This document shows, piece by piece, positions 27,401-30,400 of a stretch of DNA of 64,000 bases; the stretch's first letter is position 1; every line of letters begins with the position of its first letter. Origin of the DNA: Escherichia coli. Lineage in GTDB: Bacteria; Pseudomonadota; Gammaproteobacteria; Enterobacterales; Enterobacteriaceae. The stretch lies in assembly GCF_045037415.1 (NCBI RefSeq), contig NZ_CP173438.1; one strand, given 5' to 3'. A program made the position numbers.

Positions 27401-30400
27401 CTGACCTCATCGTTTGCCGATTTGGCAACGTCTGGTTTATCTGCAAACACAAAAGCAGACGTCAAACTAATTGCACCCAACACTACAGCAATGGTTGTAC
27501 GCATATCACACTCTGGTGGGTAATTATGATTATTAAAAGCAAACCCTCATAAATACTATAGACGGGACGGGATGAAAGTGGGAGTAAAATCAGATAACTA
27601 CGATCAGGAAAGATAAAAACGGGCGGCAATCAGTGCGCATAAAATAAGGATGATAAGAATGAACTCAAAGCGATAACGGCCCACCATACTACCCTCCGCT
27701 AAAGGCGGTGCTAAACGTTACCCGCTTAGCACCGTAATTTTCAGGCGCGAGGGGGCGCGCCAGCATTACTGTTGAAAACTTACGCTGCGGGTTGTGCAGC
27801 AGGTTTTGCCGGTTGCTGATGGCTGTGTTTCTTGGCGTGTTTCTTCGCTGCCTGCGCTTTTTGTTCAGGAGCTTTCTGTTCAGCTTTGGCATTTTTATGA
27901 TGCTTTTTAGCCGCCTGCGCTTTCTGGGCAGGTGCTGCTTTATGCTGTTTTTTATGATGTGTGGTTTTCGCAGGCGCTGCTTTGGTGGTCGTCGCAGTCG
28001 GAGCAGGTGTGGTCGCAGTCTCTGCAGCAAAGGCAGCAGAAGACAGACCCATAGCAGCGGCAACAACCAGAGCTAATACTTTTTTCATTGTCATACCCTC
28101 AATTTGTTTTTTCATTTAACCCCACTGCGGGGCCGTTGAAATAACTATATCCCTGGGAATGGCAGACTTCCGTGAGTGGTTGGTTTCAGCGTGTAACGAT
28201 ATGTACAAACGCTGAATAAATTACAGCATTGATAATAACGTATTGTGACTTAAGGAAAATTTAGCTACCAATAAAGTAGTCTTGATCGTGTTAACTATTT
28301 TACTACTTACAAAGCGGTAGAATAACTGCGCATCAGTAATAAATGACACACAGCAAAATGAATCCGTTTATTTGGGTACTTATAATCCTGATGACGCTAG
28401 ATGCGCTGCGGGAATTGGCTGGCGCTTCGTCTATTTTAGGATGGCTATTAACGTTGGTTTGAGCAGGCAATAAGTCCGGACGGGTATTTACCTCAGTCCG
28501 GACTTATTTTTTCAGGCGTGCAGACGATGATGCAAACGCGTCCCGACCAGCAGAGCAATGACCAGCATCAGAGCAATAAATGCGCCGACGCCGTTCCAGC
28601 CATAGTTATGCCAGAAAACACCACCCAGCGTCCCGGCAATACTCGACCCCAGATAGTAACTGAACAGATACAGCGAGGAGGCCTGGCCTTTAGCGCGTTT
28701 TGCGCGGGGGCCGATCCAGCTGCTGGCAACGGAGTGGGCTGCGAAGAATCCGGCTGAGAAGAGTAACATTCCGGCAAAGATCAGCCACAGCGAGCTGAAT
28801 AAGGTCATCAGTAAACCAAACAGCATAACCCCCGTCGAAAACAACATCACCGGACCGCGTCCATAGCGGGCGGTCATGGTTCCGGCTTTGGGTGAGCTCC
28901 ATGTACCGGTCAAATAAGCCAGCGATAATAAGCCAACCACGGCCTGACTGACATGCCAGGGGGAAAGCATCAACCTATAGCCGATGTAATTAAACAGCGT
29001 GACGAACGACCCCATCAGCAAAAAGCCTTCTGCGAACAATAACGGTAATCCCCGGTCACGCCAGTGCAGACGAAAGTTGATAAATAACGTCTTAGGGCGC
29101 AGCGAAGTCGGGCGAAAATGGCGTGATTCAGGGAGGATTTTCCAGAACATCAACGCCGAGGCCAGCGCGAAACAACCGATTGCCGCCAGAGCAATTCGCC
29201 AGTTAAAAAAGTCCGTGAAGACACCGCTAATTAAGCGTCCGCTCATGCCGCCAATTGAGTTGCCGCTGATATACAACCCCATTGAAAAGGCCACGAAACT
29301 AGGGTGGATTTCCTCGCTAAGATAAGTCATGCCAACGGCTGCCACGCCACTTAACGAAAGCCCAATCAAGGCGCGCATAATCAAAATGCCGTGCCAGCTG
29401 GTCATCATTGTCGAAAGTAACGTACAAATGGAGGCCAACAGTAGCGCCGTGACCATCACTGGTTTGCGACCAATGGCATCGGATAGCGGGCCAGTAAACA
29501 GCAAACCGATAGCCAACATCGCCGTTGAAATGGACAGTGAAATACTACTGTTCGCAGGCGTTAAACCAAACTCCTGCGAAAGCACCGGAAGGATAGGTTG
29601 CACACAATAGAGAAGTGCGAAGGTTGCCAGTCCGGCAGAGAAAAGCGCCAGGGTGACGCGCATAAATTGCGGCGTACCGCGTTTAATAAAATGATTTGGC
29701 TGAGAAATGCTTTGCTTGTCAGTGTCGCTTGCCGGAGCGCCATCAACAGTTGTAGTACGGCTCACTTGAAATCCTTGCTAAATATGCCTGTGGATCAGGC
29801 TTATGAATAGATTAGGAAAATCGAATTGTTCTGTCTAATATATTAATAATCTCAAATAAGATGTTTTAAATATGAATATTGAACTTCGTCATCTGCGTTA
29901 CTTTGTTGCTGTTGCAGAAGAGCTGCATTTCGGGCGCGCCGCTGCCCGCCTGAATATTTCGCAACCACCGCTAAGTCAGCAGATTCAGGCGCTGGAGCAA
30001 CAAATTGGTGCCCGACTGCTGGCACGGACCAATCGCAGTGTATTGCTGACGGAAGCAGGAAAACAGTTTCTTGTAGATAGTCGGCAAATCCTGTCTATGG
30101 TGGATGATGCTGCCGCTCGCGCTGAAAGGCTGCATCAGGGCGAAGCGGGGGAGTTGCGCATTGGTTTTACTTCGTCCGCTCCTTTTATTCGGGCGGTGTC
30201 CGATACGTTATCGCTGTTTCGCCGTGATTATCCCGATGTCCATTTACAAACCCGCGAAATGAACACTCGCGAGCAAATCGCTCCGCTCATTGAAGGAACG
30301 CTGGATATGGGATTGCTGCGTAACACAGCGTTACCGGAGACGCTTGAACACGCAGTCATCGTCCATGAACCGCTTATGGCGATGATCCCGCACGATCATC

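What the first reader, a model, noticed from the sequence alone, without database searches (positions are those of the whole stretch)
28089..28260. asr promoter carries an RstA box while the cognate kinase gene is broken
The reverse-strand motif TACATATCGTTACA at 28192-28205 fits the RstA consensus about 105 bp upstream of asr. Because rstB is frameshifted 12 kb away in this same window, acid-inducible asr expression may depend on PhoB or on RstA phosphorylated through cross-talk. This is a testable regulatory consequence of the rstB lesion.
Basis: partly seen in the sequence, partly recalled or inferred. Interest (0 to 1): 0.4.

Follow-up and report, generated by a model that had tools for sequence, protein, structure and literature searches.

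The report
Known asr promoter; private rstB frameshift
The flagged stretch is the well-studied acid-shock (asr) promoter of E. coli with its published RstA binding site. The sensor-kinase gene rstB 12 kb away really is broken in this strain, by a one-off "hairpin-perfecting" replication error, and published experiments on rstB-null E. coli already indicate what that does to asr.

Summary
Both observations are confirmed. TACATATCGTTACA lies at 28192-28205 (-). It is the only exact match to the RstA-box consensus in the window (2 of 100 shuffles give one). It sits at -68..-55 of the asr promoter, which is identical to K-12 from about -78 to the ATG and present in 5421 of 5426 complete E. coli genomes. 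This is the published RstA box, so it is not new.

rstB (15283-16582, -) is broken after codon 90, upstream of the HAMP, HisKA and HATPase_c domains. rstA, asr and samT are intact.

The lesion replaces 8 nt (CCATGCAC) with 6 nt (ACTCAG). That turns a natural quasi-palindrome into a perfect inverted repeat with 21-bp arms (16301-16344), the signature of a replication template switch. It is the only difference from typical ST131 genomes across 64 kb. It is absent from 5402 E. coli genomes and from two contig collections.

The proposed "testable consequence" has already been tested elsewhere. In K-12, an rstB null keeps asr high at pH 5 and raises it about 100-fold at pH 7, through RstA phosphorylated by other donors. 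In strain LF82, deleting rstB abolishes the acid induction.

Verdict: an ordinary, known regulatory site plus a strain-private kinase-null allele. Low interest.

The parts
28192..28205 (-). RstA box TACATATCGTTACA, at -68..-55 of the asr promoter. The published extended box, -77..-55, runs to 28214.
   Evidence: Only exact consensus match in the window. Identical to K-12. Consensus and the canonical E. coli asr box are given in PMC4117788, the position in PMC9026648, and box-dependent gel-shift (EMSA) binding in LF82 in PMC11135836.
28159..28176 (-). PhoB box region CTCACGGAAGTCTGCCAT (-39..-22), overlapping the -35 position
   Evidence: Placed from the published numbering, a PhoB box at -39..-22 followed by a 9-bp spacer to the -10 (PMC9026648), applied to the sequence. 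By my own count it matches only about 12 of 18 positions of the Pho-box consensus, which I recalled from memory.
28144..28149 (-). -10 hexamer TATAGT. The inferred transcription start is at 28137.
   Evidence: Sequence. The inferred numbering puts the RstA box edge at exactly -55, as published. No sigma-70 consensus promoter was found, as expected for a promoter that needs an activator.
28089..28137 (-). asr 5' leader of about 49 nt, with a small CCCC/GGGG hairpin and the GAGGG ribosome-binding site
   Evidence: Sequence; the start point is inferred. No Rfam family matches.
27780..28088 (-). asr coding sequence, 102 aa, intact
   Evidence: Annotated as asr in the identical ST131 region.
27604..27687 (-). 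samT (ydgU), a 27-aa small protein co-transcribed with asr that feeds back on RstB. Intact.
   Evidence: Translation MVGRYRFEFILIILILCALIAARFYLS. Function from PMC13425233.
16586..17305 (-). rstA response regulator, 239 aa, intact
   Evidence: Same length as the annotated rstA in relatives.
15283..16582 (-). rstB pseudogene. Native residues 1-90 are followed by 89 out-of-frame residues and a stop at 16043. The correct frame resumes at R94.
   Evidence: HAMP, HisKA and HATPase_c all lie in the out-of-frame part.
16301..16344 (.). Perfect inverted repeat with 21-bp arms and a 2-nt spacer, created by the lesion. The rewritten bases are 16306-16311 (ACTCAG in rstB sense). The copied arm is 16334-16339.
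   Evidence: the next-longest close inverted repeat in the window has 13-bp arms. The wild-type allele has only a 10-bp inner and a 5-bp outer stem. Predicted hairpin energy is -23.3 kcal/mol against -12.8 for wild type.
17362..17378 (-). PhoP-box-like sequence TGTTTAGAAACGATTGA upstream of rstA, the PhoQP input to rstA transcription
   Evidence: Sequence. The consensus was recalled from memory, not tested. PhoP control of rstA is stated in PMC4117788.

Best explanation
Window 28089-28260 is the canonical asr-samT promoter of E. coli. It has an RstA box at -68..-55, a PhoB box at -39..-22, a TATAGT -10 hexamer and a leader of about 49 nt. The sequence is unchanged from the K-12 and LF82 promoters where RstA binding and activation were shown.

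The strain is an ST131-type E. coli. Its only private change in 64 kb is in rstB. A single replication template switch at a natural quasi-palindrome rewrote 8 nt as the 6-nt complement of the opposite arm. This made a perfect 44-bp palindrome, shifted the frame after codon 90 and removed every signalling domain of RstB.

Inferred consequence: RstA is still made, under PhoP control, and is still phosphorylated by non-cognate donors (acetyl-phosphate, possibly EnvZ or CpxA). asr-samT is therefore still activated through the RstA box. The RstB phosphatase brake at neutral pH and the SamT-to-RstB negative feedback are both lost. Expression should be higher at neutral pH, with a smaller fold induction by acid. 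PhoB input under phosphate limitation should be unaffected.
For: SHOWN FROM SEQUENCE
- Motif, position and identity to K-12.
- The promoter is present at 95% identity or more in 5421 of 5426 complete E. coli genomes.
- The window is 100% identical to ST131 strain 4/1-1 over 44 kb. Over the other 20 kb it differs by exactly 3 mismatches and 2 gaps, the same differences seen in the lesion against strain SK1144.
- The 489-bp length difference near ydgH is private to strain 4/1-1.
- The lesion creates a perfect 21-bp-arm inverted repeat from a 10+5-bp quasi-palindrome.
- The catalytic domains fall in the out-of-frame part.
- rstA, asr and samT are intact.

FROM PAPERS
- RstA-box consensus and the canonical asr box (PMC4117788).
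- Box positions in the promoter (PMC9026648).
- RstA binding to the asr promoter in gel-shift (EMSA) assays is abolished when the box is deleted or scrambled (PMC11135836).
- A K-12 rstB null keeps asr high at pH 5 and raises it about 100-fold at pH 7. Both effects depend on RstA D52. SamT feedback is lost (PMC13425233).
- Quasi-palindrome mutations arise by template switching and make the repeat perfect (PMC7202029).
Against: No expression or binding data exist for this strain. In LF82, a B2 strain closer to ST131 than K-12 is, deleting rstB 'abolished the upregulation' of asr by acid. That could mean low expression rather than constitutive expression. I reconcile the two by noting that what LF82 lost was acid-versus-neutral upregulation, which a raised neutral baseline would also remove, but this is my inference. 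The transcription start is inferred from published numbering and not mapped here. The primary papers (Ogasawara 2007, Suziedeliene 1999) could not be read. The lesion occurs in no other genome, so a consensus error at a hairpin cannot be formally excluded.
Confidence: 0.7

Rival explanations
1. Simple loss of activation. Without its kinase, RstA stays unphosphorylated. The RstA box is unoccupied, so acid induction of asr is lost and expression stays low. Only PhoB, under low phosphate, can then turn asr on.
For: In LF82, rstB, rstA and rstAB mutants all abolished acid upregulation of asr and csgD (PMC11135836). LF82 belongs to phylogroup B2 (my own knowledge), the group I take ST131 to belong to as well. 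PhoB has its own box at -39..-22.
Against: Chromosomal rstB-null and phosphotransfer-dead alleles in K-12 kept asr high at pH 5 and raised it at pH 7. This depended on RstA D52 (PMC13425233). The loss of acid-versus-neutral upregulation seen in LF82 does not distinguish a low level from a constitutive one.
Confidence: 0.22
2. The rstB lesion is not biological. It is a sequencing, polishing or assembly error at a hairpin-forming site, or a mutation picked up during laboratory passage of the sequenced clone.
For: The allele is absent from 5402 complete E. coli genomes; the best match is 96.7% over 121 bp. It is also absent from the metagenome and species-representative contig collections. The truncated product is not on record.
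Against: The other roughly 64 kb contain no mismatch or indel against close ST131 relatives, so the assembly is clean. Common sequencing errors are single-base or homopolymer errors. They do not produce an 8-nt to 6-nt rewrite that exactly complements the other arm, which has about a 1 in 4096 chance for a random 6-mer. A passage-acquired mutation would still be a real template-switch event.
Confidence: 0.1
3. Residual or altered RstB activity. The in-frame ATG at 16320, or a ribosomal frameshift, yields an N-terminally truncated 345-aa RstB with TM2, HAMP, HisKA and HATPase_c. This protein signals constitutively or acts as a phosphatase.
For: The ORF from ATG 16320 to 15283 is open and keeps all three catalytic or transducer domains.
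Against: No ribosome-binding sequence precedes that ATG (AAATATCATCTTGATG). The ATG lies at the centre of a -23 kcal/mol hairpin. The upstream frame runs on for 89 more codons, so re-initiation at this site is unlikely. A protein lacking TM1 and half the periplasmic domain would probably not insert into the membrane correctly. There is no slippery heptamer.
Confidence: 0.05

Closest known systems
RstA box of the E. coli K-12 asr promoter (Ogasawara et al. 2007, as cited in PMC4117788 and PMC9026648)
   Same: The 14-mer TACATATCGTTACA is identical, the flanks are identical from about -78 to the ATG, the position (-55 edge) is the same, and so is its orientation relative to asr.
   Different: The site itself does not differ. 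Only the host differs: an ST131-type strain with an rstB null allele.
Engineered chromosomal rstB null (rstB**, two premature stops) and rstB-LA in K-12 (PMC13425233)
   Same: The kinase is lost while rstA is intact and the asr-samT operon and its promoter are unchanged. This is the direct experimental model for this genotype.
   Different: The allele here is natural. It is a frameshift at codon 91 that leaves a 90-aa native N-terminus plus 89 unrelated residues. The background is ST131. The phenotype is untested.
rstB deletion in adherent-invasive E. coli LF82 (PMC11135836)
   Same: A B2-phylogroup strain in which RstA binds the asr promoter through the box, and an rstB knockout was tested for acid induction.
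   Different: That is a full deletion and replacement of the gene. The reported outcome, loss of acid upregulation, appears to differ from the K-12 result.
Quasi-palindrome-associated template-switch mutations (Ripley 1982; the E. coli thyA hotspot; the lacZ QP5/QP6 reporters; PMC7202029)
   Same: An imperfect inverted repeat becomes perfect in one complex event. The new bases are the exact complement of the other arm, and the result is a frameshift.
   Different: This is a natural allele found in a genome sequence, not a selected revertant. The inner stem is 10 bp and the outer stem 5 bp, with an asymmetric 6/8-nt internal loop. Recurrence was not seen in 5402 genomes, so there is no evidence that the site is a hotspot.

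Membership tests
RstA box (binding site of the OmpR/PhoB-family regulator RstA) | Match to the consensus TACATNTNGTTACA, with tandem TACA half-sites 10 bp apart | tested here: met
   Exact match at 28192-28205 (-). Only one in the window. 2 of 100 shuffles give a match. Consensus from PMC4117788.
RstA box (binding site of the OmpR/PhoB-family regulator RstA) | Located upstream of the core promoter of a known RstA target, at the published position (-77..-55 of asr) | tested here: met
   With TATAGT taken as -12..-7, the box edge falls at exactly -55, matching PMC9026648. The transcription start is inferred, not mapped.
RstA box (binding site of the OmpR/PhoB-family regulator RstA) | Sequence identical to the experimentally validated site | tested here: met
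   Alignment with K-12 is invariant from about -78 to the ATG. Binding in LF82 depends on the box.
RstA box (binding site of the OmpR/PhoB-family regulator RstA) | RstA binding and RstA-dependent activation in this strain | not testable with these tools
   Needs a gel-shift (EMSA) or reporter assay.
PhoB (Pho) box | Two direct 7-bp repeats resembling CTGTCAT, 11 bp apart, overlapping the -35 position | tested here: inconclusive
   CTCACGGAAGTCTGCCAT at -39..-22 matches about 12 of 18 positions of the consensus, which I recalled from memory. The assignment rests on the literature. The primary paper is not held.
Quasi-palindrome template-switch mutation | The ancestral allele contains an imperfect inverted repeat at the site | tested here: met
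   The ST131 wild type has a 10-bp perfect inner stem and a 5-bp outer stem around a 6/8-nt mismatch.
Quasi-palindrome template-switch mutation | The mutation makes the repeat perfect, and the new bases are the exact complement of the other arm | tested here: met
   CCATGCAC becomes ACTCAG, the reverse complement of CTGAGT. The result is 21-bp arms at 100% complementarity.
Quasi-palindrome template-switch mutation | Several base changes plus an indel, all explained by one event, with no other nearby change | tested here: met
   All 3 mismatches and 2 gaps found across 20 kb fall within the lesion.
Quasi-palindrome template-switch mutation | Dependence on replication or exonucleases, or stimulation by AZT or fluoroquinolones | not testable with these tools
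   Needs fluctuation assays (see PMC7202029).
Null allele of a two-component sensor kinase | The reading frame is disrupted upstream of the HAMP, HisKA (phospho-acceptor His) and HATPase_c domains | tested here: met
   The frame is lost after residue 90. The domains lie at residues 163-423 of intact RstB and only in the shifted frame here.

The most novel reading that the evidence does not exclude
The rstB allele of B2/ST131 strains is a better quasi-palindrome than the K-12 allele. It could be a recurrent template-switch hotspot, possibly stimulated by fluoroquinolone exposure, that generates rstB-null subclones. In those subclones, loss of RstB phosphatase activity would leave RstA constitutively active, raising asr, csgD and possibly type 1 fimbriae, and this state could be selected within the host.
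Probability: 0.06. Interest if true: 0.5.

Novelty: already known. Interest (0 to 1): 0.18.

Why it matters
It matters little for regulatory biology. The site, its regulator and the effect of removing RstB are all published. The value is local. The work shows that this ST131-type genome carries a natural RstB-null allele, which could affect acid response, curli and type 1 fimbriae, traits linked to RstAB in pathogenic E. coli. It also provides a clean natural example of a quasi-palindrome-perfecting template switch that inactivates a gene. An annotation pipeline would report this event only as a 'frameshift'.

Tried and rejected
- **Primary papers.** Ogasawara 2007 (PMC1913430) and Suziedeliene 1999 (PMC93620) are not held. 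I relied on papers that cite them.
- **Literature on natural rstB lesions in ST131.** The search returned only noise, because 'rstb' matches a journal DOI.
- **Exact-product look-up.** The 179-aa truncated RstB is not on record.
- **Exact-junction scans.** Metagenome contigs and species-representative genomes gave 0 hits each.
- **121-bp search of 5426 E. coli genomes.** No carrier of the lesion was found.
- **Sigma-70 promoter scan of 27500-28500.** It found nothing, which fits an activator-dependent promoter and is not evidence against one.
- **Rfam scan of 27000-29000.** No hits.
- **Programmed frameshifting or re-initiation in rstB.** Considered and rejected: there is no slippery site and no ribosome-binding sequence, and the ATG is buried in the new hairpin.
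- **Low-quality assembly.** Considered and rejected, because the rest of the window has no mismatch or indel against its relatives.
- **The 489-bp difference from strain 4/1-1.** I first took it for a second difference in the window. It is private to that reference strain.

Full report
**What the window is.** The window is E. coli chromosome of the ST131 type, in reverse orientation relative to K-12. Positions 19870-64000 are 100% identical to strain 4/1-1 (NZ_CP023844.1). Positions 1-20362 differ from it by 3 mismatches and 2 gaps. The apparent 489-bp length difference near ydgH is a duplication private to strain 4/1-1, because the window has the common ST131 form of that junction. The gene order is malI-hdhA-uidRABC-ydgA-manA-fumA/B-fumC-tus-rstB-rstA-ydgC-folM-ydgI-ydgH-pntAB-tqsA-mdtJI-ydgD-samT-asr-ynfM and onward.

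**The observation.** TACATATCGTTACA is on the - strand at 28192-28205, exactly as stated.
- It is a perfect match to the RstA-box consensus TACATNTNGTTACA, which PMC4117788 quotes from the genomic SELEX work of Ogasawara et al. 2007.
- It is the only match in 64 kb even when one mismatch is allowed. For the exact pattern, shuffles give a mean of 0.02, and 2 of 100 give a match.
- asr is the 102-aa ORF at 27780-28088 (-), so the near edge of the motif is 104 nt upstream of the ATG.

**Promoter anatomy.** PMC9026648 places the RstA box at -77..-55, and the PhoB box at -39..-22 followed by a 9-bp spacer to the -10 hexamer. I applied that numbering to the sequence, with this result:

| Element | Window coordinates (- strand) | Promoter position |
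|---|---|---|
| -10 hexamer TATAGT | 28144-28149 | -12..-7 |
| Transcription start (inferred) | 28137 | +1 |
| PhoB box CTCACGGAAGTCTGCCAT | 28159-28176 | -39..-22 |
| RstA box 14-mer | 28192-28205 | -68..-55 |

The proximal edge of the box lands on exactly -55, the published value, which supports the mapping. The start point itself is inferred and was not mapped here. A sigma-70 consensus scan finds no promoter, as expected for a promoter that lacks a -35 element and depends on an activator. No Rfam family matches the region.

**Conservation and prior experimental work.**
- The promoter is invariant between the window and K-12 from about -78 to the ATG.
- The 172-bp stretch is present at 95% identity or more in 5421 of 5426 complete E. 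coli genomes.
- In the B2 strain LF82, RstA shifts the asr promoter in gel-shift (EMSA) assays, and deleting or scrambling the box abolishes binding (PMC11135836).

The site is therefore the already characterised RstA box of asr, not a new prediction.

**The rstB lesion.** rstB falls into two ORFs, 16043-16582 and 15283-16323, both on the - strand.
- Aligned to intact ST131 rstB, the window reads GATGATATTT--ACTCAGCGGCTG where relatives read GATGATATTTCCATGCACCGGCTG.
- Native residues 1-90 are retained. Residues 91-93 (SMH) are lost. The original frame resumes at R94 but is not read. The product would be 90 native plus 89 unrelated residues.
- HAMP, HisKA and HATPase_c (residues 163-423 of intact RstB) all lie in the shifted frame.
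- rstA (16586-17305, -) is intact. So is samT/ydgU (27604-27687, -), the 27-aa feedback peptide encoded downstream of asr.

**How the lesion arose.** The change is not a simple 2-bp deletion. Eight nucleotides (CCATGCAC) are replaced by six (ACTCAG), and those six are the exact reverse complement of CTGAGT in the opposite arm.
- The result is a perfect inverted repeat with 21-bp arms and a 2-nt spacer at 16301-16344. It is by far the longest close-spaced inverted repeat in the window. The next has 13-bp arms.
- The wild-type ST131 allele has only a 10-bp inner stem and a 5-bp outer stem around an asymmetric 6/8-nt mismatch.
- The K-12 allele is less palindromic still.
- Predicted single-strand hairpin energy goes from -12.8 to -23.3 kcal/mol.

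This is the defining signature of a quasi-palindrome-associated template-switch mutation. The nascent strand copies the other arm and then switches back, which makes the repeat perfect in one event (PMC7202029). A random 6-nt replacement would match the other arm about once in 4096 tries.

One further point is inference only, from my own knowledge of E. coli terminus replication. The rewritten arm is the one copied second by a strand synthesised in the rstB sense direction. The locus lies next to tus and TerB, in a region normally replicated by the counter-clockwise fork. Under the intramolecular model this would make it a lagging-strand event.

**Is the lesion real, and is it shared?** All three mismatches and both gaps seen across 20 kb lie within the lesion. 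Nothing else differs from typical ST131 genomes in 64 kb. An error-prone assembly is therefore unlikely.

The allele is private. None of 5402 complete E. coli genomes carries it; the best match over 121 bp is 96.7%. The junction is absent from the metagenome and species-representative contig collections, and the truncated product is not on record. This argues against a recurrent hotspot or a lineage marker. It also leaves a small chance of a clone-specific or technical origin, which only raw reads can settle.

**Regulatory consequence.**
- **K-12.** A chromosomal rstB null (two premature stops) and a phosphotransfer-dead allele left asr "surprisingly high" at pH 5. They induced asr about 100-fold at pH 7. 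Both effects vanished with RstA D52A. The authors conclude that RstB acts as a phosphatase at pH 7 and that other phosphodonors exist: EnvZ or CpxA at pH 7, and acetyl-phosphate at both pH values. SamT's negative feedback, which works through RstB, was lost in these mutants (PMC13425233).
- **LF82.** The rstB, rstA and rstAB mutants all abolished acid upregulation of asr (PMC11135836).

I infer that these results are compatible. A raised neutral-pH baseline also abolishes the acid-versus-neutral upregulation that LF82 lost. My committed prediction for this strain is that asr-samT is still driven through the RstA box by RstA phosphorylated from non-cognate sources, with a higher neutral-pH level, a blunted acid response and no SamT feedback. 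PhoB input under phosphate limitation should be unchanged. Probability is about 0.55-0.6, against about 0.2-0.25 for simple loss of activation. Nothing here was measured in this strain.

**Possible wider effects.** These are reported in the literature and not tested here. RstAB promotes csgD and biofilm formation and survival in macrophages in LF82. It promotes type 1 fimbrial phase-ON switching and bladder invasion in the uropathogenic strain CFT073 (PMC13276309). An rstB-null ST131 isolate could be altered in those traits in either direction.

**Verdict.** Both observations are correct. The regulatory site is already known. The rstB allele is a new, private instance of a well-known mutational mechanism. 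Interest is low.

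Noticed in passing
window 28185-28192 and 28209-28216: A perfect 8-bp inverted repeat (TTCAGCGT / ACGCTGAA, 16 nt apart) brackets the RstA box, and its inner end overlaps the last base of the box. It is conserved in K-12. It could be chance, or a site for another dimeric factor.
   Followed up: partly
window 15221-15235 (-): A Ter-like site, GGATGTTGTAACTAA, lies between the rstB stop codon and tus. This is where I recall TerB sitting, in the tus promoter. It places the rstB lesion in the replication terminus region.
   Followed up: no
L002 12204-12877 (strain 4/1-1), equivalent to window ~19870-20362: The reference ST131 strain 4/1-1 carries a private tandem duplication of about 489 bp covering the 3' part of ydgH, annotated as a partial YdgH-like pseudogene. 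The window and most ST131 genomes have a single copy.
   Followed up: yes
L006 (strain 26561), just upstream of asr -78: In a bovine mastitis E. coli, an IS1 element is inserted immediately upstream of the RstA box. It replaces everything distal to about -78 while leaving the box and core promoter intact. This is a natural 'minimal promoter' variant.
   Followed up: partly
window 5384-6756 (uidB), 6795-8061 (uidC), 36487-38056 (ynfF-like): Strain 4/1-1, which is sequence-identical here, annotates uidB, uidC and a molybdopterin oxidoreductase (ynfF position) as frameshifted pseudogenes. Because the window is 100% identical over these stretches, they are lineage-level ST131 pseudogenes, unlike the private rstB lesion. 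The window coordinates were computed from the alignment offsets and not re-checked by translation.
   Followed up: no
window 41096-41109 (-), also 23121, 54374, 56873: The loose 'classic' RstA pattern TACA-N6-TACA occurs 5 times against 1.2 expected, and 0 of 100 shuffles reach 5. One copy, TACAGTACTTTACA, lies in the ynfC-ynfD intergenic region about 49 nt upstream of the ynfD start and on its strand. The other three non-asr copies are inside genes or next to mgtS/mgtT.
   Followed up: no
window 28343-28462 (+): A 39-aa hydrophobic small ORF (MTHSKMNPFIWVLIILMTLDALRELAGASSILGWLLTLV) lies divergent from asr. It is annotated in relatives as a 'KPN_01571 family protein'. Its start is about 140 bp beyond the RstA box, so it may share the regulatory region.
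   Followed up: no
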